Assembly (NCBI GenBank): GCA_037134695.1
Contig: JBAXLU010000002.1
Location: 1 to 60,505, forward strand
Length of the DNA: 60,505 bases
Direction: 5' to 3'
From: Candidatus Nomurabacteria bacterium
GTDB taxonomy: Bacteria; Patescibacteriota; Minisyncoccia; Phycocordibacterales; UBA5272
The notes beneath the pieces are model-generated. The model worked only from the letters and a program-made list of their open reading frames with translations, was not told the origin of the DNA and did no database searches. Position 1 is the stretch's first letter; every line of letters starts with the position of its first letter. Below, in pieces: positions 701 to 59,823 of the stretch. The translations under genes and the position numbers were made by a program.

Positions 701-773
701 GGTGCCTATAGTGTAATGGTTAGCACGCGGGCTTGTGGAGCCCTCAGTTCCGGTTCAAATCCGGATAGGCACA
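701..773 (+). tRNA. tRNA-His (anticodon GTG)
   Basis: Cloverleaf read by eye. Encoded G-1 plus acceptor GTGCCTA/TAGGCAC, D-arm GTGT..GCAC, anticodon loop TTGTGGA (GTG at 735-737), T-arm TCCGG-TTCAAAT-CCGGA, discriminator A, no encoded CCA. Confidence 0.85.
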
Positions 774-782
774 CTTGTAATA

Positions 783-33667: not shown

Positions 33668-35362
33668 ATGAATTCCTACAAAGATATATTTGAGGTTCTT
33701 AAAAGTAAGGTAAGTGATGGTGCTACATTTTCTTTATCTCAACCAGAAGACGCACTTCACGGTGATTTTGCAACTAATATTGCTTTCATTCTTGGTAAAG
33801 AAAAAGGTGTTTCTCCAAAAGTTGCAGCTGAGGAGCTGGTTTCTGTTTTACAAGAGGAACTCGCGGACATTGTAGAGAAAATAGAAGTCGCTGGCCCTGG
33901 GTTTATAAATTTCTTTTTAAAAGATGATGTAAGAACAGATGAAGTTGAAGAACTTGCAGAAGGTGCCGTTGTAATTTCTGAAAATAAAGGAAAAGTAATG
34001 GTGGAATATACTGACCCAAATTGTTTTAAAGTTTTTCATATTGGTCACTTGATGGCAAATGCTATAGGTGAGGCAACAGCAAGATTATATGAAGCGAGTG
34101 GTTATGAAGTGATGCGTGTTTGTTATCCATCGGATATTGGTAGAAATGTTGCTATGGGTGTCTGGGGTGTGATGCAAAAAGAAAATGAAAAGCCAAAAGC
34201 TGATGCAGAATTAAAAGATAAAGTTTCATTTTTAGGAATGTGTTACGCTTTTGCAAATGGAGAATTTGAAAGTAATGAAAAATCAAAGATAGAAATAGGG
34301 GAGGTTAATAAAGCAATTTATGATGGGTCTGATGCAAAAGTTATGGAAGTTTATGCCGAAGGGCGAGCTTTATCACTAGAGTATTTTGATCAGCTTTATG
34401 AAAAGTTAGGTACTACTTTTGATAAAACTATTTTTGAATCTGAAGTTGCTGAACCAGGGGCAGAAATTGTGAAAGCAAATATGGGGAAAATCTTTAAAGA
34501 GTCAGACGGTGCAGTTGTTTATAAAGGAGAGCAAGATGGATTACACACGAGAGTATTTTTAACAGCTCAAGGACTTCCAACATATGAAGCAAAAGAGTTA
34601 GGAAATTATGAAAAAAAATTAGATAGTTTACCAGAAGCCTCTTTTTATGTTGTTATTACGGCAAATGAACAAAATGAATATTTTAAGGTTATAAATAAAG
34701 TTACAGAAAAGATTCATCCAGAATTAGTTGATAGACTTGTGCATATTGGTCATGGAATGATGAGACTTCCTACAGGCAAAATGGCGTCTAGAACTGGAAA
34801 TGTAATTGGAGCGGAGGATTTATTGGATATGATTACTGAGAAGCTAAAAGAAAAATTAGCTGACAAGGTCGTGGCATTTTCTGATAGCGATAAATTATTA
34901 AATGATATTGCAGTGGGTGCGATTAAGTTTTCTATATTAAAACAAGCCCCAGGGGGAGATATTGTTTTTGATTTTGATAAATCAATTTCTTTTGAAGGGG
35001 ATTCAGGCCCATATTTACAATATACTCACGCGAGAATTTGTACTCTTTTAGAGAAAGCAAAAGAAGTAGATATAACGACAGAATCTTATGTTGTAGAAAA
35101 TCCCGAAAGAGAATTAGAACAAGTTTTAATTGGATATAGACAGACACTCGAAAAATCTTATAAAGATTTAGGCCCGCATCACATTGTTCAATATTTACTT
35201 TCATTAACAAGAGCTTTTAATGCTATGTATGGACGTACACAAATCGTTGATGTTAATAATAAAGAAAAGAGTGCTTATTATGTAATGCTCGCAACCGCGA
35301 CACAAAAGATTTTAGCTCATGGTTTGCACACACTAGGAATCAAAGCCCCAGAGAGAATGTAA
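33668..35362 (+). CDS. argS: Arginine--tRNA ligase
   Basis: Class I HIGH variant (FHIGHLMAN), a C-terminal anticodon-binding DALR-type region, and overall ArgRS pattern. Confidence 0.9.
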   Translation: MNSYKDIFEVLKSKVSDGATFSLSQPEDALHGDFATNIAFILGKEKGVSPKVAAEELVSVLQEELADIVEKIEVAGPGFINFFLKDDVRTDEVEELAEGAVVISENKGKVMVEYTDPNCFKVFHIGHLMANAIGEATARLYEASGYEVMRVCYPSDIGRNVAMGVWGVMQKENEKPKADAELKDKVSFLGMCYAFANGEFESNEKSKIEIGEVNKAIYDGSDAKVMEVYAEGRALSLEYFDQLYEKLGTTFDKTIFESEVAEPGAEIVKANMGKIFKESDGAVVYKGEQDGLHTRVFLTAQGLPTYEAKELGNYEKKLDSLPEASFYVVITANEQNEYFKVINKVTEKIHPELVDRLVHIGHGMMRLPTGKMASRTGNVIGAEDLLDMITEKLKEKLADKVVAFSDSDKLLNDIAVGAIKFSILKQAPGGDIVFDFDKSISFEGDSGPYLQYTHARICTLLEKAKEVDITTESYVVENPERELEQVLIGYRQTLEKSYKDLGPHHIVQYLLSLTRAFNAMYGRTQIVDVNNKEKSAYYVMLATATQKILAHGLHTLGIKAPERM

Positions 35363-35588: not shown

Positions 35589-36029
35589 ATGCAAGAAAAA
35601 AAATTACAAAATACACAAAAAGATTCTTTTGATATTTGGAACTCATTAAAAAAAGATTTAAATTCTTCTTCTAAAGAATCGGCAGTTTTTCGTACCAGAG
35701 ATATTTGGTGGACTTCTTTGGGGAAAAATGTTGGTTTTGAAGAAGATGGAAAGAATGAGCTTTTTGAAAGACCTGTTCTTATTCTTAAAAAATGGAACGC
35801 CTCATTTTTTGTTGGTATTCCTTTTACAACAAAGAAAATAATTTCAGAAGAAAATAGTAAGTTTTATCATAGGTATGATCTTAATGATTTTGAACAAGGC
35901 TATGCAATGTTATCTCAGATACGTGTTTTTAGTAGTAAAAGAATACAGAGAAGAATAAAAAAGATGGGGGAAAAAGATTTTGAGGAAGTAAAAAAGAAAT
36001 TGAAAGAAATCCTTTTATTAGAGGAATAA
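35589..36029 (+). CDS. PemK/MazF-family toxin-like protein (solitary)
   Basis: RDIWWTSLGKNVGFEEDGKNELFERPVLIL ... SQIRVFSSKRI matches the MazF/PemK fold signature. No adjacent antitoxin ORF. Confidence 0.7.
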   Translation: MQEKKLQNTQKDSFDIWNSLKKDLNSSSKESAVFRTRDIWWTSLGKNVGFEEDGKNELFERPVLILKKWNASFFVGIPFTTKKIISEENSKFYHRYDLNDFEQGYAMLSQIRVFSSKRIQRRIKKMGEKDFEEVKKKLKEILLLEE

Positions 36030-36120: not shown

Positions 36121-39100
36121 ATGAACAACAACCCAACACCAAAAACAATATCAGAAAAAGAAGAAGAGGTTTTAAATTTCTGGCTTGAAAATAAAATCTT
36201 TGAGAAATCAATGGAAACTCCTGCAAGTGAAAAAGCAAAAGGGGATTTCTCTTTTTACGATGGTCCACCATTTGCGACTGGTCTTCCACACTATGGACAT
36301 ATTTTGGCGGGGACAATTAAAGATGCTGTTCCACGTTATCAAACAATGAACGGTAAAAGTGTTCGCCGTGTTTGGGGTTGGGACTGTCACGGCCTTCCAA
36401 TTGAGAATTTAATTGAGAAAAAACTTGGACTAAAAAGTAAAAAAGATATTGAAGATTTTGGTATTGGTAAGTTTAATAAAGATGCAAATGATAGTGTTCT
36501 TCAATATGAAGAAGAATGGAGAAAAGTAATTCCAAGACTTGGTAGATGGGCTGATATGGATAGACCGTATAAAACGATGGACGCAACATACACAGAAAGT
36601 ATTTGGTGGGCTTGGAAAACTTTGTATGAAAAAGGCTTGGCCTATGAAGGAAATAAAATGATGCACATTTGTCCTCGTTGTGAGACTCCTCTTGCTCAAT
36701 CAGAAGTTGGACTTGAATATCATGATGTTACAGATCTTTCTGTTACGGCTAAATTTGAATTAGTAAATGAAGCTAATACTTTTGTTCTTGCTTGGACTAC
36801 AACACCTTGGACATTACCAGGAAATGTTGCACTTGCTCTTAAACAAGATGCTAATTATGTGAAAGTTTCAATTGAAGGAATGGAAGGAAAATATATTCTT
36901 GCAGAAGAAAGAACTGGAGAAATATTGAAGGAAATGAAATTCGAAGTTTTGGAAACTTTCACGGGGTCAAAATTAATTGGTCAGTCATACAAACCAGTTT
37001 TCCCATATTTTATAGATAAAGAAATTGAAAATAAACAAAATATTTGGAAGATTTGGCATGCAGACTTTATAACATTAGACACTGGTACCGGTATTGCCCA
37101 TGAAGCACCAGCCTTTGGTGCTGAAGATATGGAATTAGCGAAAGCAAATAATTTCCCTGTAATTAAACATGTGAAAATGGACGGGACTTTTATACCGGAT
37201 GTGACGGATTTTGCTGGCATGAAAGTAAAAGTAAAAGATGACACACAGTCTGCTGATATTGAAATCATAAAATGGCTAGCTCACAATGGAAAGCTTTTTG
37301 AAAAACATAAAATAATTCACTCATATCCACTTTGTTGGAGATGTAAAACTCCGCTACTTAACTATGCGACATCGAGTTGGTTTGTTGATGTTCCAAAAAT
37401 GAAGGACAGGTTAATTGAAGAAAATAAAAAAATTGTTTGGGTACCAGAGCATATTCGTGACGGCAGATTTGGTAAATGGTTAGAAGGGGCTCGTGAGTGG
37501 GCAGTGTCCCGTACACGTTATTGGGGTGCACCACTTCCTGTTTGGAAAGATGAGAATGGAGAGATTTTAATTATTGGTTCTTTGAAAGAATTAGCAGAGA
37601 AAAATAAACAAAAGCCAAAAAATGCTTATTATGTAATGCGTCACGGGGAATCTTTTTCTAACATAAATAACGTCATTGATGTTGGGTCAGATGAAAATAA
37701 TCACTTAACAGAAAAAGGTATAACTCAAGTAGTGGGCCAAAGAGATTTTATCAAAGATTTAAATATAGATTTGATATTTTCTTCATCAGTACTTCGAGCT
37801 AAAGAAACAGCAGAAATTGTTAAGGGTGAAAAGGAAATTATTGTTGAAGACAGATTAAGAGAAAGTAGTGATGGTATATATGATGGGAAAGATGTCTCTG
37901 CTTTAGAAAGAGAAGTGGGTAAAGATTATTTAAGATTTGATTATAAGATCGAAGGAGGTGAATCACATCAAGAAATAATGAATCGTGTTATGAATCTTAT
38001 AATGGATTGTGAGAAGGAATATACAAATAAAAATATTTTATTTGTAACTCATGGTGGGCCTGCACGTATGATGCTTGCCGGAGCTGAGATTATTACAGAA
38101 GAGCAAGTCATTAATGGTGATCAAATTAAATCTGGTAATTTATATTTAAACAATGCAGAAATAAGAAAAGTAAATTATAAAATTATTCCACGTGACGAAA
38201 CAGGTGCAGTAAATCTTCACCGTCCATATATTGATGAAATAGAATTAGAGAATAATGGTAAAACTTATAAAAGAATAGGTGATGTTTTTGATTGTTGGTT
38301 TGAATCAGGTTCAATGCCGTTTGCACAACTCCATTATCCATTTGAGAATAAAGAAGTTTTTGATAAAAATTATCCAGCAGACTTTATCGCGGAAGGATTA
38401 GACCAAACTCGTGGATGGTTTTATTCACTTATAAATTTAGGAGTTGGGTTATTTGATAAAGCTCCTTATAAACATGTAGCAGTAAATGGACTTATTTTGG
38501 CAGACACTGGAGAAAAACTCTCTAAGAGTGAGAAGAATTATACAGATCCAATGATTCTTGTAGAAAAATACGGAGCAGATTCAATGCGTTATGCATTATT
38601 ATCTAGTTCTGTTGTTAAGGGAGAGGATTTACTATTTGGAGATGATGTTGTTTCTGATGTTTATAAGAAACTTGTTTCTCGACTACTAAACGTTGTTTCA
38701 TTATATGAAATGAATAAACCTGAAAAAGTTGAAGCAAAAAATAGTTCAAATGATGTTTTGGATATTTGGATGATGTCACGTGTGCATGAATTGGTTCGTG
38801 ATGCAACAAAAGGTTATGAATCATATAAATTGGATGAAGCGACACGTGGTATTGGAGATGTTATTGATGACATTTCTGTTTGGTATACACGTAGATCACG
38901 CGATCGGTTGAAAGGAGACACTGGAGCAGAAGACCAAATGCGTGCTTATGAGACATTAACCTATGTACTTGTAACTTTGTCTAAAGTTATGGCACCAGTT
39001 ATGCCGTTTACCGCTGAAATGGTTTATAAGGCTTTAAATGGAGAGAAAGAATCTGTCCATCTTGAAAGCTGGCCAAAAGGTGGATTAGTTGATGAAGAGG

Positions 39101-39552
39101 TTATTAAAGAAATGAAAAATGTTAGAGACATAGTAACTGTCGCTCTTTCTCTTCGTACTGCATCAAAAATCGCTGTTCGTCAGCCACTTCAAAAGATTAC
39201 CTTAAAAGAGCAGATAAAAAGTGAATATCATAAAATCATTTTAGATGAACTTAATGTTAAGGAAATTGCCTTTGATAATTCTGCTACAGATGCTTGTTTA
39301 TTGGATACTAATATTACTGAGGAATTAAAAATAGAGGGTGATGTTAGAAATCTAATGCGTGCCGTTCAGGATGCTCGTAAGGAAAAAGGTTTAACTCCAA
39401 AAGATTTTATTATTCTTTTGACTAATTATTCTGTTCCTCTAAAGTTTAAAGAAGTATTAATGAATACTTGTAAAATTAGTGAAATAAAAGAGGGGGCAGG
39501 AAAATATAAAGCAGAAACAAGCGGAGGGGAAATTTATTTTGATTTAAATTAA
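36121..39552 (+). CDS. ileS: Isoleucine--tRNA ligase (type 2) with an inserted histidine-phosphatase domain
   Basis: HIGH (PHYGHILAG), KMSKS (KLSKS), the CP1 editing region and NLHRPYID. An extra ~190 aa with RHGES...THGG lies at about 37624-38190. Confidence 0.93.
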   Translation: MNNNPTPKTISEKEEEVLNFWLENKIFEKSMETPASEKAKGDFSFYDGPPFATGLPHYGHILAGTIKDAVPRYQTMNGKSVRRVWGWDCHGLPIENLIEKKLGLKSKKDIEDFGIGKFNKDANDSVLQYEEEWRKVIPRLGRWADMDRPYKTMDATYTESIWWAWKTLYEKGLAYEGNKMMHICPRCETPLAQSEVGLEYHDVTDLSVTAKFELVNEANTFVLAWTTTPWTLPGNVALALKQDANYVKVSIEGMEGKYILAEERTGEILKEMKFEVLETFTGSKLIGQSYKPVFPYFIDKEIENKQNIWKIWHADFITLDTGTGIAHEAPAFGAEDMELAKANNFPVIKHVKMDGTFIPDVTDFAGMKVKVKDDTQSADIEIIKWLAHNGKLFEKHKIIHSYPLCWRCKTPLLNYATSSWFVDVPKMKDRLIEENKKIVWVPEHIRDGRFGKWLEGAREWAVSRTRYWGAPLPVWKDENGEILIIGSLKELAEKNKQKPKNAYYVMRHGESFSNINNVIDVGSDENNHLTEKGITQVVGQRDFIKDLNIDLIFSSSVLRAKETAEIVKGEKEIIVEDRLRESSDGIYDGKDVSALEREVGKDYLRFDYKIEGGESHQEIMNRVMNLIMDCEKEYTNKNILFVTHGGPARMMLAGAEIITEEQVINGDQIKSGNLYLNNAEIRKVNYKIIPRDETGAVNLHRPYIDEIELENNGKTYKRIGDVFDCWFESGSMPFAQLHYPFENKEVFDKNYPADFIAEGLDQTRGWFYSLINLGVGLFDKAPYKHVAVNGLILADTGEKLSKSEKNYTDPMILVEKYGADSMRYALLSSSVVKGEDLLFGDDVVSDVYKKLVSRLLNVVSLYEMNKPEKVEAKNSSNDVLDIWMMSRVHELVRDATKGYESYKLDEATRGIGDVIDDISVWYTRRSRDRLKGDTGAEDQMRAYETLTYVLVTLSKVMAPVMPFTAEMVYKALNGEKESVHLESWPKGGLVDEEVIKEMKNVRDIVTVALSLRTASKIAVRQPLQKITLKEQIKSEYHKIILDELNVKEIAFDNSATDACLLDTNITEELKIEGDVRNLMRAVQDARKEKGLTPKDFIILLTNYSVPLKFKEVLMNTCKISEIKEGAGKYKAETSGGEIYFDLN

Positions 39553-39556
39553 ATTA

Positions 39557-39587
39557 GCAAAAGTGGCGCCGTAGGCGCCACTTTTGC
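39557..39587 (+). terminator. Intrinsic terminator after ileS
   Basis: GCAAAAGTGGCGCC-gta-GGCGCCACTTTTGC. Confidence 0.85.
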
Positions 39588-39633
39588 TCGTATTTACTGT
39601 TAGCTGTAGACTGTTAACTATAAGTTGCCCCAA

Positions 39634-40188: not shown

Positions 40189-40350
40189 GTCGAAAGTTGA
40201 AAGTCTATAAAGTTTATAAAGTAAATACAAATCAGCCCCGCTTACCTTGCTCATAAAAATAAAGATTCAATGAATTTCATTAAAAATTAAAAATTGGAAA
40301 TTGAAAATTAAATTTATGTAACCATAAATTTGTTTGTTATACTGTCACAT

Positions 40351-42225
40351 ATGAATCCACCAGAAGAAAATAATGAATTACACCAAATTGATAATTTGGA
40401 GTATAAACTATATGATCCAAAGCAGGTTGGTAATGAAACTGCTAGACATATGATTTCTAGTCGTAAAGAAGAAGAGGTTAAAACAAACTGGGTAGAGATT
40501 ACACCAATAATAAAACCAATCGATGAAGTTGAGACAAGTTATTCTTTTGGTACAAAAATACTTTTTTTCGCACTTATTTTTTTATTTGCAGTACTGTCTT
40601 TCACAGCTTGGAGAGTTTTGTCTTCTAGAAATGTTGTTTCTGTGGATAATATTGATATAACACTTGAAAATAAACCATATGTAGATGGAGGAGAAACTAC
40701 ACCTTTTAGTGTTTCTGTTTTTAATAGAAATACTTCTCCGTTACAAGAAGCAACCATAACAATTTCTTATGAAAAAGGTATTGGGGCTTTAGATGAACAA
40801 CAAAAAGTTTATGAAAAAAGAGATTTGGGAACAATATTACCGAACGTTATAAAGAAAGAAGATTTAAATATTACTTTATATGGAGCAGCAGATGAAACTA
40901 GAGTTATTTCTGTTAAGTTGGAGTATAAAGTTGCTGGAACTAATGCTGTTTTTAATAAACCTACAACAACACAAGTTGTTTTGAAAACTCCTCCGATTTC
41001 TGTTCACATAGATGGTCCAGAAACCTTGGTACAAGGGCAAGATGGTATTTTTAATATTTCTATTATTAATAATACTTCAACAGAAATTAAAGATAGTTTG
41101 TTGTCGGTTTCATTACCAACAACGTTTAAGATGACTCAATCAGACCCAAAACCAAATACAAAAGGGATGATGTGGGTTTTACCATCTGTTTTCCCTGGTG
41201 CGACGTCAACAGTAACGATATCGGGGTCTTTTACTGGTGTACCAGGAGAAGTGGATACGATTAAAGCAAGCGTTGGAAGTGCTTCGTCTGCGGTTAATCA
41301 GATGGGCGTTGTTTATTCACAAGAGGGTCATAGTATTTCTATAACTTCTCCGTTATTAGCTTTGAATGCTCATTTAGAAACAGATAGAGGAAGCGCAGAG
41401 AATCTCCGCTATGGGGACAAGGCCGTTGTCTATGTTTCTTACGAAAATAAAAATGATAAGGCTTTGCGAGATGTTTCTATTGTAGTAAATGTTGGAGGAG
41501 ATGCTCCGATTATATCTTCTGTATCTTCTGATTATGGTTATTATAATTCAATTAATAAAACTATTACATTTAATACGTCTACTAATCGTGAACTATCCTC
41601 TGTTGCTCCAGGTGGTAAAGGAGAGTTTAGAATTTCTATCCCTATAATTTTAAAAGGAAATAGTTCTCCTAAACTTTCTCTTGTTATTGATGGTAAAGCA
41701 TCATCTGTTTCAAAAGATGATTCTGCTACAGAATTTTCAAAATCTTGGAATGTTGAAGGAAATGCTACGTTTAGTGCTACTACCGCTTATAAAAACTCAA
41801 CTTTTATAAATAGTGGACCACTGCCTCCAAAAGCAAATGTTAGCACGACTTATAGTGCACACTTAGTTGCTTCTGCTCAAAACGCGTTAGTTAATTCTAA
41901 AGTATCATTTATATTACCAGCTTATGTAACTTTCACAGGGACTTTTGCTACGGGAACAAATGTAACTTATAACGATAGAACCAGAACTGTTGTATGGAAT
42001 ATAGGAAATATATCAGCTGGAGGAGTTGTTTTTAATGACATTAAACTTAGTGTAAAGCCTTCTCAGAGTCATGTAGGAAATATGCCACCAATAACATCTA
42101 GTGTTACTTTAGAAGCTGATGAGGCCGACAGTAAAGCATTAGTAAGAACAATAACTAATCCATTAACTACAGATATTTCTAGAGAACAGGGCACAAATGA
42201 CCTCTCTCATGTAATTGCTAATTAG
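40351..42225 (+). CDS. Large membrane-anchored hypothetical protein (beta-rich, S/T/N-rich ectodomain)
   Basis: One N-terminal TM helix followed by about 530 aa of repetitive beta-strand-like sequence. No family recognised. Confidence 0.7.
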   Translation: MNPPEENNELHQIDNLEYKLYDPKQVGNETARHMISSRKEEEVKTNWVEITPIIKPIDEVETSYSFGTKILFFALIFLFAVLSFTAWRVLSSRNVVSVDNIDITLENKPYVDGGETTPFSVSVFNRNTSPLQEATITISYEKGIGALDEQQKVYEKRDLGTILPNVIKKEDLNITLYGAADETRVISVKLEYKVAGTNAVFNKPTTTQVVLKTPPISVHIDGPETLVQGQDGIFNISIINNTSTEIKDSLLSVSLPTTFKMTQSDPKPNTKGMMWVLPSVFPGATSTVTISGSFTGVPGEVDTIKASVGSASSAVNQMGVVYSQEGHSISITSPLLALNAHLETDRGSAENLRYGDKAVVYVSYENKNDKALRDVSIVVNVGGDAPIISSVSSDYGYYNSINKTITFNTSTNRELSSVAPGGKGEFRISIPIILKGNSSPKLSLVIDGKASSVSKDDSATEFSKSWNVEGNATFSATTAYKNSTFINSGPLPPKANVSTTYSAHLVASAQNALVNSKVSFILPAYVTFTGTFATGTNVTYNDRTRTVVWNIGNISAGGVVFNDIKLSVKPSQSHVGNMPPITSSVTLEADEADSKALVRTITNPLTTDISREQGTNDLSHVIAN

Positions 42226-59390: not shown

Positions 59391-59434
59391 AAAATAAATT
59401 AGACCGCATCATATGATGCGGTCTAATTTATTTT
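59391..59434 (-). terminator. 44-nt perfect palindrome terminating ssrA
   Basis: AAAATAAATTAGACCGCATCAT|ATGATGCGGTCTAATTTATTTT. Confidence 0.8.
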
Positions 59435-59435
59435 G

Positions 59436-59823
59436 TGGAAGCGGAGGGGTTCGAACCCTCGTGTATACCGGAACGGTGAACGCGTCTACTGTATATAGTT
59501 TGCTTATTGTATTCGCATTTATTATATAAAACAAACGAAAACAATAAATGTATAGCATAATTATTTCGATTAAATTGCTATGCTACAAAGTAATCTACCT
59601 CCGCTGTTATATTGCCCAGACCTTTTCCGCAGATACGAAAGGGAAGGACACCAGATCGGTCTAAATTAGACGAATGCTGGAACTAGACCAAACGCATAAG
59701 GCGAAGGAATAGCTTTTCCAGTTGTTTTTGCAACATGGGTTCTCTAAAGTTTACGAGTTATAGAGAAGTCTCGATACAGCACATACAACCATTATCGACA
59801 TATCAAAGCCAAAGTACGCTCCC
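59436..59823 (-). ncRNA. ssrA: tmRNA (SsrA)
   Basis: On the minus strand, 5' GGGAGCG pairs with 3' CGCTTCC-A, with the G3:U pair. T-arm GAGGG-TTCGAAC-CCCTC and a CUCGUAAA element are present. Candidate tag ORF is GCA AAA ACA ... GUC UAA (AKTTGKAIPSPYAFGLVPAFV), with its stop in hairpin GTCTA-att-TAGAC. Located directly downstream of smpB. Confidence 0.85.

What the first reader, a model, noticed from the sequence alone, without database searches (positions are those of the whole stretch)
37624..38190. Histidine-phosphatase (phosphoglycerate-mutase-like) domain inserted inside isoleucyl-tRNA synthetase
In type-2 IleRS as I recall it, roughly 15-40 residues separate the conserved YWGAPLPVW...IGS segment from NLHRPYID. 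Here there are about 190 extra residues. They carry the branch-1 histidine phosphatase hallmarks in order: YYVMRHGESFSN (RHG nucleophile loop), SSSVLRAKETAE, and FVTHGGPARMM (second catalytic His). The catalytic residues look intact, which suggests an active phosphatase or mutase embedded in the synthetase. I know of no described IleRS with this insertion.
Basis: partly seen in the sequence, partly recalled or inferred. Interest (0 to 1): 0.65.

Follow-up and report, generated by a model that had tools for sequence, protein, structure and literature searches.

The report
Phosphatase nested inside isoleucyl-tRNA synthetase
The isoleucyl-tRNA synthetase of this tiny-genome (Nomurabacteria-type, CPR) bacterium carries a complete, apparently active histidine phosphatase in a loop of its catalytic body; the design is real, is shared by many related species and was mentioned once in print in 2013, but its substrate is unknown.

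Summary
Confirmed. Window 36121-39552 (+) is one 1143-aa type-2 IleRS. Residues ~496-690 are a full branch-1 histidine phosphatase (Pfam His_Phos_1, E=3e-29; insert-alone AF2 pLDDT 91; TM ~0.8 to PhoE, GpgP, PspA). It sits in the CP3 subdomain, where solved IleRS2 has about 10 residues.

All catalytic residues (R507, H508, N514, R559, E581, H644) are invariant in 114 homologs. dN/dS of the insert is 0.12-0.16. IleRS keeps HYGH, KLSKS and its editing motifs.

Of 80 IleRS loci from species-representative genomes, 28 have the domain nested, 2 have it as a separate gene directly upstream (argS-phosphatase-ileS), and 50 have none within 4 kb. Nested and upstream copies form one clade. A second phosphatase lineage nests at a second CP3 site in Peregrinibacteria, and a third lies inside gatCAB next to a NUDIX gene.

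It is not undescribed: Kantor et al. 2013 noted an SR1 IleRS split by PGM and NUDIX domains, and this scan has flagged the architecture about 500 times on other DNA.

The substrate is unknown. My odds: about 45% a small-molecule phosphatase co-expressed with IleRS, about 30% direct help for tRNA charging.

The parts
36121..39552 (+). ileS: type-2 isoleucyl-tRNA synthetase with a nested phosphatase, 1143 aa
   Evidence: Single ORF. TIGR00392 847 bits in two stretches. AF2 pLDDT 85.6, pTM 0.77. Foldseek TM 0.82 (target-normalised) to 8c8v.
36121..37605 (+). IleRS N-terminal body (aa 1-495): first half of the Rossmann fold with HYGH (aa 57-60, nt 36289-36300), the CP1 editing domain with TTTPWTLPGN (aa 226-235, nt 36796-36825), CP2, and the first half of CP3
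   Evidence: Pfam tRNA-synt_1 stretch 17-504. Alignment to 8c8v residues 10-474. These motif residues are invariant or nearly so in 114 homologs.
37606..38190 (+). Nested branch-1 histidine phosphatase (aa ~496-690), equivalent to a whole free-standing gene
   Evidence: His_Phos_1 E=3e-29. Insert-alone AF2 pLDDT 91.2. TM ~0.8 to GpgP, PhoE and PspA. Its ends match the N- and C-termini of the free-standing orthologs. dN/dS 0.12-0.16.
37639..37647 (+). R507-H508-G509: nucleophile loop of the phosphatase
   Evidence: R and H are 100% and G 97% conserved in 114 homologs. They are also invariant across 117 free-standing relatives.
37795..37797 (+). R559: second phosphate-pocket arginine
   Evidence: Invariant.
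37861..37863 (+). E581: predicted general acid
   Evidence: Invariant. It aligns with the Glu of the PhoE 'RLREIHLG' segment.
38050..38052 (+). H644: second catalytic histidine (THGG)
   Evidence: Invariant.
38188..38211 (+). C-terminal junction PRDETGAV (aa 690-697), leading into NLHRPYID
   Evidence: P690, R691, D692 and G695 are invariant in the close family. A related P-[HR]-[ND]-x..E-L linker is shared by nested forms in different host clades and is absent from insert-less IleRS.
38191..39552 (+). IleRS C-terminal body: rest of CP3, second half of the Rossmann fold with KLSKS (aa 799-803, nt 38515-38529), the anticodon-binding domain and the DUF5915 C-terminal domain
   Evidence: Pfam Anticodon_1 and DUF5915. 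Alignment to 8c8v residues 485-851.
33668..35362 (+). argS, the conserved upstream neighbour
   Evidence: The argS...ileS order is kept in orthologs L012 and L013. It is also kept in loci where the phosphatase is a separate gene: L001, L049 and L090.
39556..39588 (.). 15-bp GC-rich hairpin directly after the ileS stop codon (terminator-like)
   Evidence: This is a consensus scan only.

Best explanation
A whole small histidine phosphatase gene of the PhoE/PspA/CobC/GpgP type has been nested in frame inside a fully functional type-2 IleRS. In sister lineages the same gene lies directly upstream of ileS, in an argS-phosphatase-ileS string. The insertion site is the loop between the two halves of the CP3 knuckle. 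Shown here: both enzymes are intact and under purifying selection. Inferred: the phosphatase hydrolyses a phosphomonoester in two steps. H508 attacks the phosphate held by R507, N514, R559 and H644, E581 protonates the leaving group, and water then releases phosphate from phospho-H508. It is a phosphatase, not the glycolytic mutase. My most likely reading is that the substrate is a small phosphorylated metabolite or nucleotide, and that nesting (like the earlier operon position) mainly guarantees one-to-one co-expression with an essential, strongly expressed enzyme. On this reading the phosphatase does not take part in the aminoacylation reaction itself.
For: Identity and integrity: Pfam and NCBIfam scores, confident models, and a fold closest to small-molecule phosphatases (GpgP, PhoE, PspA, CobC, HFP) at TM ~0.8. 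Catalytic residues are invariant and dN/dS is 0.12-0.16. IleRS motifs are conserved. Origin: the nearest free-standing relative lies 2 nt upstream of an insert-less ileS. Two Staskawiczbacteria genomes have argS-phosphatase-ileS with gaps of 4-5 nt. Nested and upstream copies form one clade with SH-aLRT 97, and the nested segment matches the free-standing protein end to end. For a loose coupling: 50 of 80 IleRS2 loci, including several CPR lineages, have no such gene within 4 kb. The nested domain here is acidic (net -10, pI 4.95), unlike an RNA binder. The same loop region also hosts unrelated domains such as an IS200-like Y1 transposase and a GNAT. No step of the IleRS reaction has a phosphomonoester intermediate (established enzymology).
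Against: Linkage to ileS is unusually strict. In the 80-locus scan the domain is either nested or immediately upstream, never merely nearby. A second phosphatase lineage is nested at a second CP3 site, and a third lies inside gatCAB with a NUDIX gene in two arrangements. The free-standing ileS-upstream orthologs are strongly basic (pI ~10, net +18 to +24), as expected for proteins that bind RNA or an acidic partner. These points fit a working link with tRNA charging better than chance co-expression does.
Confidence: 0.45

Rival explanations
1. The phosphatase works with the synthetase as a third catalytic site. It would clear a phosphate that blocks charging. One candidate is a 3'-phosphate on the tRNA acceptor end, or the 3'-phosphate left after a NUDIX enzyme trims a toxSAS-type 3'-pyrophosphate. 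Another is a phosphorylated adenylate-like by-product or poison aimed at class Ia synthetases and GatCAB.
For: ileS linkage is conserved across a wide radiation, as nested or immediately upstream copies. A second lineage nested independently at a second CP3 site. A third lineage is paired with NUDIX inside gatCAB in both gene orders. A NUDIX domain is nested in a class-I synthetase that Pfam assigns to the leucyl type. Kantor 2013 reports NUDIX plus two PGM domains in an SR1 IleRS. Free-standing ileS-upstream orthologs have pI ~10 while nested ones are near neutral or acidic, as if the tether replaced an RNA- or partner-binding surface. A conserved, non-flexible-looking junction is shared among nested forms. 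tRNA 3'-CCA pyrophosphorylation is a real form of damage (bioRxiv 10.1101/2021.04.30.441581).
Against: No histidine phosphatase is known to act on RNA ends (my knowledge; no paper found). The nearest folds are metabolite phosphatases. Most IleRS2, including many CPR enzymes, do without it. Six of nine sampled free-standing relatives are not next to tRNA-charging genes. The charge contrast rests on three proteins from basic-leaning genomes. The distance from H508 to the tRNA path could not be measured.
Confidence: 0.3
2. The domain now serves mainly as a scaffold or sensor. It would stabilise CP3 in place of the lost zinc knuckle, or bind a phospho-metabolite and tune IleRS activity to it, with turnover being secondary.
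For: It sits between the two Cys pairs of the CP3 knuckle, and this window's lineage has lost all four Cys. The junction residues are strongly conserved.
Against: Many nested hosts keep all four Cys (L014, L023, L048, L025, L024, L028...), and some insert-less IleRS also lack them (L041, L073, L078), so insert and zinc loss are not coupled. Strict invariance of every catalytic residue, including the nucleophile and the acid, argues for catalysis, not just binding.
Confidence: 0.12
3. It is the cell's cofactor-dependent phosphoglycerate mutase (glycolysis) fused to IleRS.
For: The best NCBIfam sub-model is archaeal dPGM, NF038349. CPR genomes have patchy glycolysis (general knowledge).
Against: NF038349 scores 76-81 bits against a cut-off of 225, and TIGR01258 scores 22.6 against 81.7. 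The second His lies in THGGP, not the HGNS I recall for dPGM (recollection, not tested). The region between E581 and H644 is short, about 62 aa, as in PhoE-type phosphatases. The closest folds are phosphatases.
Confidence: 0.05
4. Artefact: a chimeric assembly, or a selfish in-frame cassette that is decaying.
For: Earlier notes on this genome report in-frame selfish repeats inside essential genes (not tested here). An IS200-like domain is nested in one relative.
Against: The same architecture appears in all of the best 120 database hits from independent assemblies. dN/dS is 0.12-0.16. Catalytic residues are invariant. The fold is confident.
Confidence: 0.01

Closest known systems
Bacterial and eukaryote-like type-2 IleRS (Priestia megaterium IleRS2 8c8u/8c8v; T. 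thermophilus 1ILE; C. albicans 6LDK; S. cerevisiae 8WND)
   Same: The whole synthetase body matches: E=2e-210 by sequence and TM 0.82 by fold. It has the HxGH and KxSKS motifs, the CP1 editing motifs, the anticodon-binding domain and the DUF5915 C-terminal domain.
   Different: About 204 residues stand where 8c8v has about 10, inside CP3 (CP3 is residues 473-534 of 6LDK per PMC7191050; the alignment break is at about 498). This window's CP3 also lacks the four Cys found in T. thermophilus and P. megaterium and in many CPR relatives.
Small branch-1 histidine phosphatases: PhoE/YhfR (1H2E, 1EBB), PspA (4IJ5), CobC (6E4B, 6NRU), GpgP Rv2419c (4QIH, 6S2Q), riboflavin-pathway HFP (9MMH)
   Same: The fold matches at TM ~0.8. 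It has the same catalytic set (RHG, N, R, E, H) and a similar size of about 190 aa with a short cap.
   Different: Sequence identity is only 20-27%. No equivalog cut-off is reached, so the substrate cannot be transferred from these enzymes. The domain is embedded in another enzyme, not free.
SR1 (Absconditabacteria) IleRS described by Kantor et al. 2013, mBio (PMC3812714)
   Same: An IleRS interrupted by phosphoglycerate-mutase-family domains in a CPR bacterium. This is the only description in print that I found.
   Different: That protein has a NUDIX domain plus two PGM domains and was noted in one sentence with no analysis. Here there is one domain at one CP3 site, in a Nomurabacteria-type (Paceibacteria) lineage.
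NCBIfam NF040702 ileS_w_GNAT (IleRS with an N-acetyltransferase domain)
   Same: Precedent for an IleRS that has acquired an extra enzyme domain. One relative found here carries both a GNAT and the phosphatase (P0317).
   Different: A different enzyme family is involved. The query scores 299 bits against a cut-off of 1999, so it is not a member.
CP1 editing domain of class Ia synthetases
   Same: A hydrolytic domain nested in the Rossmann fold of IleRS, ValRS and LeuRS. This shows that the fold tolerates and exploits nested catalytic modules (established knowledge).
   Different: CP1 is universal and acts on mischarged tRNA. The phosphatase is lineage-specific, lies in CP3 and has no known substrate.
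Bifunctional RNase H / CobC-type acid phosphatase (Rv2228c type, NF005567)
   Same: A small His_Phos_1 domain joined to a nucleic-acid enzyme. The insert matches the phosphatase half of that model.
   Different: That is an end-to-end fusion, not a nesting. The score is 53-55 bits against a cut-off of 326.

Membership tests
Isoleucine--tRNA ligase (TIGR00392 equivalog), type 2 | Whole-protein score above the curated cut-off | tested here: met
   847.2 bits against 621.4, in two stretches split by the insert.
Isoleucine--tRNA ligase (TIGR00392 equivalog), type 2 | Class I signature motifs HxGH and KMSKS | tested here: met
   HYGH at residues 57-60 and KLSKS at 799-803. H57 and G59 are nearly invariant and K799, S801, K802 and S803 invariant in 114 homologs.
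Isoleucine--tRNA ligase (TIGR00392 equivalog), type 2 | CP1 editing-site motifs (Thr-rich TTTPWT peptide, conserved Asp) | tested here: met
   T226-N235 (TTTPWTLPGN) and D336 are invariant.
Isoleucine--tRNA ligase (TIGR00392 equivalog), type 2 | Closer to type-2 than to type-1 structures | tested here: met
   8c8v (IleRS2) E=2e-210 against 1ffy/8c9e (type 1) E=1e-82 to 1e-89. TM 0.82 against 0.74.
Isoleucine--tRNA ligase (TIGR00392 equivalog), type 2 | Aminoacylation of tRNA-Ile, and sole ileS of the genome | not testable with these tools
   Only one ileS lies in the 60-kb window. The whole-genome search was shut.
Histidine phosphatase superfamily, branch 1 (PF00300) | Score above the Pfam gathering threshold | tested here: met
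   102-107 bits against 21.7.
Histidine phosphatase superfamily, branch 1 (PF00300) | Catalytic set: RHG nucleophile loop, second Arg, Glu acid, second His | tested here: met
   R507, H508, G509, R559, E581 and H644 are present and invariant or nearly so.
Histidine phosphatase superfamily, branch 1 (PF00300) | Alpha/beta fold of the family | tested here: met
   AF2 pLDDT 91.2. Foldseek E=1e-14 and TM ~0.8 to 6s2q, 4qih, 1h2e and 4ij5.
Histidine phosphatase superfamily, branch 1 (PF00300) | Phosphatase activity | not testable with these tools
   Requires an enzyme assay.
Cofactor-dependent phosphoglycerate mutase (TIGR01258; NF038349) | Score above the curated cut-off | tested here: not met
   TIGR01258 22.6 against 81.7; NF038349 76-81 against 225.
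Alpha-ribazole phosphatase CobC (TIGR03162) | Score above the curated cut-off | tested here: not met
   71-76 bits against 162.9.
Phosphoserine phosphatase PspA / PSP1 (NF045917, NF009994) | Score above the curated cut-off | tested here: not met
   44-49 against 350; 63-66 against 277.
Phosphohistidine phosphatase SixA (TIGR00249) | Score above the curated cut-off | tested here: not met
   35.2 against 74.5, and only the N-terminal third matches.
Mupirocin-resistant IleRS MupA / MupB (NF000257, NF000258) | Score above the curated cut-off | tested here: not met
   683-691 bits against 1900. This is general type-2 similarity only.

The most novel reading that the evidence does not exclude
The nested phosphatase is a third active site of the synthetase. 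It would remove a blocking phosphate from the tRNA acceptor end so that damaged tRNA can be recharged. That phosphate could be a 3'-phosphate, or the 3'-phosphate remaining after a NUDIX partner trims a 3'-pyrophosphate. Alternatively it would destroy a phosphorylated adenylate-type poison or by-product. The same phosphatase-plus-NUDIX toolkit would have been recruited repeatedly by enzymes that hold the tRNA 3' end (IleRS, a leucyl-type class-I synthetase, GatCAB).
Probability: 0.3. Interest if true: 0.85.

Novelty: new member of a known kind. Interest (0 to 1): 0.5.

Why it matters
Aminoacyl-tRNA synthetases are among the best-studied enzymes, and only two catalytic activities (synthesis and editing) are known in class Ia. 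Here a conserved, apparently active third enzyme sits in the catalytic body across a large bacterial radiation, tightly tied to ileS either as a nested domain or as the upstream gene. That arrangement is uncharacterised. If it acts on tRNA ends or on adenylate-like compounds, it would reveal a new quality-control or repair step in translation, and possibly a defence against tRNA-targeting toxins. If it is only a co-expressed housekeeping phosphatase, it is still a clean natural example of whole-enzyme nesting in a surface loop, and useful for understanding CPR genome economy and for protein engineering. For annotation: NCBI names close relatives only 'class I tRNA ligase family protein'. They should be called isoleucine--tRNA ligase with a nested histidine phosphatase.

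Tried and rejected
These were whether there is a second ileS, other His_Phos_1 or PGM genes, or NUDIX partners.

2. I wanted the distance from H508 to the synthetic and editing sites, but AF2 coordinates are not exposed to the Python box. The docking geometry is therefore untested.

3. I tested whether the gene between argS and ileS is conserved. The window's 146-aa ORF is a MazF/PemK-like toxin and has no similarity to the 163-aa gene at the same place in L001. That slot is variable.

4. I considered that the insert replaced the CP3 zinc knuckle, and rejected it. The insert lies between the two Cys pairs, many nested hosts keep all four Cys, and some insert-less enzymes lack them.

5. I considered a single clean origin with vertical descent. 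The phosphatase tree has one clade for the single nested copies, but the IleRS body tree puts nested hosts in at least five supported positions. Repeated gain, repeated loss and CP3-cassette recombination cannot be separated here. Both trees are quick searches with SH-aLRT support only.

6. I tested whether ileS or gatCAB adjacency is general for the family. It is not: 6 of 9 sampled free-standing relatives sit in unrelated contexts.

7. Literature searches for IleRS with histidine phosphatase, PGM domain or Patescibacteria found only Kantor 2013.
Full report
**Observation**

Window 36121-39552 (+) is a single 1143-aa ORF. The finding's coordinates (37624-38190) are residues 502-690. Pfam places tRNA-synt_1 on both sides and His_Phos_1 at residues 504-662 (E=3.3e-29). 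NCBIfam's ileS equivalog TIGR00392 scores 847 bits against a cut-off of 621, in two stretches.

**Where the insert sits**

Against solved type-2 IleRS (P. megaterium 8c8v), query 10-491 aligns with chain 10-474 and query 696-1053 with chain 485-851. About 204 residues therefore stand where the solved enzyme has about 10. The alignment to C. albicans IleRS (6LDK) breaks at about residue 498. That paper defines CP3 as residues 473-534 and notes a zinc motif in the T. thermophilus CP3 (PMC7191050).

A junction alignment of 32 IleRS shows that every single nested copy lies at the same place. That place is the loop between the two Cys pairs of the CP3 knuckle, just before the conserved (D/N)LHRPYID. 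Many nested hosts keep all four Cys. This window's lineage has lost them, but so have some insert-less enzymes (L041, L073, L078). Zinc loss and insertion are therefore not coupled.

**Is each enzyme intact?**

- *IleRS.* HYGH (57-60), KLSKS (799-803), the editing peptide TTTPWTLPGN (226-235) and D336 are invariant or nearly so in 114 full-length homologs. The AF2 model (pLDDT 85.6, pTM 0.77) superposes on 8c8v at TM 0.82.
- *Phosphatase.* R507, H508, N514, R559, E581, H644 and G645 are 100% conserved and G509 is 97% conserved. The same R, H, G, R, E, H set is invariant in 117 free-standing relatives.
- *Fold.* The insert alone folds with pLDDT 91.2 and pTM 0.89. It matches GpgP (4qih, 6s2q), PhoE (1h2e), PspA (4ij5), CobC (6e4b) and HFP (9mmh) at TM about 0.8.
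- *Selection.* dN/dS against a 93%-identical ortholog is 0.12 for the insert, 0.043 for the N-terminal body and 0.085 for the C-terminal body. Against a 72% ortholog the values are 0.16, 0.10 and 0.19.
- *Sub-family.* No sub-family model reaches its cut-off (dPGM, CobC, PspA, SixA). It is a member of the superfamily with an unassigned substrate, and not a canonical mutase.

**How widespread, and is it known?**

A region-restricted search found 1179 hits, and all of the best 120 are IleRS of about 1140-1200 aa carrying PF00300. Source labels include Nomurabacteria, Pacebacteria and Parcubacteria. NCBI names them only 'class I tRNA ligase family protein'.

An exhaustive profile-free search with the insert gave 9660 hits (850 at E<=1e-10) in hosts of many lengths. 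Of 20 larger hosts that I scanned, 19 are IleRS-type class-I synthetases or fragments. They carry one to four phosphatase copies. One has a copy just before the anticodon-binding domain. One also carries an IS200-like Y1 transposase domain and a GNAT.

In print I found only one sentence, in Kantor et al. 2013 (PMC3812714). [quoted passage not shown] This scan has also flagged the architecture about 500 times in other genomes. I used those notes only as leads and re-tested them.

**Origin**

Free-standing relatives are at most 41% identical (most 26-38%; the 41% hit, P0127, is itself an IleRS fragment). The closest one (P0122) lies in argS - 163-aa gene - phosphatase - ileS, 2 nt upstream of an insert-less 950-aa ileS. 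This window has argS - MazF-like ORF - ileS with the nested phosphatase, and its orthologs keep that order.

A scan of species-representative genomes returned 80 IleRS2 loci with 4-kb flanks. An HMM scan of all six-frame ORFs gave:

| Arrangement | Loci |
|---|---|
| Single nested copy | 22 |
| Double nested copy (all labelled Peregrinibacteria/Peribacteria) | 6 |
| Separate gene immediately upstream (Staskawiczbacteria; argS-phosphatase-ileS, gaps 4-5 nt) | 2 |
| None within 4 kb (includes Moran-, Falkow-, Uhr- and Gottesmanbacteria and all non-CPR) | 50 |

The domain is never merely nearby.

In a tree of 79 domains, all 22 single nested copies, the three ileS-upstream genes and one other free gene (P0146) form one clade (SH-aLRT 97). 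Peregrinibacteria copy 1 is a separate clade. Copy 2 groups elsewhere, among free-standing genes (99). Copy 2 also occupies a second site about 12 residues downstream. Nesting in IleRS therefore happened at least twice.

The nested segment matches the free-standing protein from its N-terminus (M-K-L-N-N-x-YYILRHG against K-N-x-YYVMRHG) to its C-terminus. A whole gene was nested.

The IleRS body tree, with insert columns removed, places nested hosts in at least five supported positions. Yet nested forms share a derived linker, P-[HR]-[ND]-x..E-L. Repeated gain, repeated loss and recombination of a CP3 cassette cannot be separated here. Both trees are quick searches with SH-aLRT support only.

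**What does it do?**

The chemistry is inferred from the family: hydrolysis of a phosphomonoester through phospho-H508. The substrate is unknown.

*For a working link with tRNA charging*
- The ileS linkage is strict.
- There is a second independent nesting.
- A third phosphatase lineage lies inside gatCAB next to a NUDIX gene, in both gene orders.
- A NUDIX domain is nested in a class-I synthetase that Pfam assigns to the leucyl type.
- There is a charge contrast. The three free-standing ileS-upstream orthologs have pI of about 10 (net +18 to +24). Nested copies average -2.3, and this one is -10 with pI 4.95. It is as if the covalent tether replaced an RNA- or partner-binding surface.
- A NUDIX-plus-phosphatase pair could in principle turn a 3'-pyrophosphorylated CCA end back into a 3'-OH. 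toxSAS enzymes are known to cause that damage (10.1101/2021.04.30.441581).

*Against*
- The nearest folds are metabolite phosphatases.
- Most IleRS2 lack the domain.
- Six of nine sampled free-standing relatives sit in unrelated contexts.
- The loop also accepts unrelated domains.
- The charge contrast rests on n=3, from genomes with basic-leaning ORFs.
- I could not survey the genome.

*My odds*

| Reading | Odds |
|---|---|
| Small-molecule phosphatase kept with IleRS mainly for co-expression | ~45% |
| Direct role in tRNA charging or repair, or detoxification | ~30% |
| Scaffold or sensor | ~12% |
| Glycolytic mutase | ~5% |
| Artefact | ~1% |

**Verdict**

This is a real, conserved and apparently active enzyme-within-an-enzyme. 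It is a further member of an architecture already noted in print and in databases, but it has never been characterised. Interest is moderate. It would become high if the phosphatase proves to act on tRNA or on adenylate-type compounds.

Noticed in passing
window 35589-36029 (+): A 146-aa PemK/MazF-like toxin ORF (Pfam E=3e-10) lies between argS and ileS, with no plus-strand ORF of 25 aa or more upstream that could be an antitoxin. The slot is variable: the 93% ortholog has an unrelated 501-aa gene there, and the 72% ortholog has no gene called there.
   Followed up: partly
L005 5234-6418 and L009 3564-4621: gatC and gatA are separated by a histidine phosphatase and a NUDIX hydrolase, in the order HisPhos-NUDIX in one genome and NUDIX-HisPhos in another, with gaps of a few nucleotides. 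Both lie in a murT-gatD-gatCAB-dnaE string. Earlier first-reader notes report similar gatCAB interruptions in other genomes.
   Followed up: partly
L011 1-2082: [quoted passage not shown] It is followed by Sua5, SHMT, a free histidine phosphatase of the ileS-linked clade, a metallo-beta-lactamase/Apyc1-like gene and a CYTH gene.
   Followed up: partly
protein P0317 (1066 aa, from the representative library): An IleRS that carries an IS200-like Y1 transposase domain (residues 340-461), a histidine phosphatase (680-854) and a GNAT acetyltransferase (935-1063), all in one polypeptide.
   Followed up: no
proteins P0243, P0306, P0254, P0290, P0386: IleRS relatives with two to four tandem phosphatase copies. 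P0254 has one copy (871-1061) directly before the anticodon-binding domain, which is a different insertion point.
   Followed up: partly
window 39556-39588: A perfect 15-bp GC-rich hairpin lies 4 nt after the ileS stop codon. It looks like a terminator on both strands.
   Followed up: no
window 40330-42225 (+): A 631-aa ORF with no Pfam match is conserved downstream of recO in both orthologous loci, as genes of 622-624 aa with only a faint CLIPPER hit.
   Followed up: no
window 59433-59823 (-) and 702-774 (+): A full-length tmRNA gene (Rfam 82 bits) and a tRNA-His(GTG). ARAGORN did not report the tmRNA.
   Followed up: no
L023, L027 and several 'Candidatus Saccharibacteria' TPA records: Record labels such as Spirochaetia, Gammaproteobacteria and Saccharibacteria are attached to contigs whose IleRS and phosphatase cluster with Paceibacteria-type sequences. 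These are probably mislabelled or mis-binned MAG contigs.
   Followed up: no
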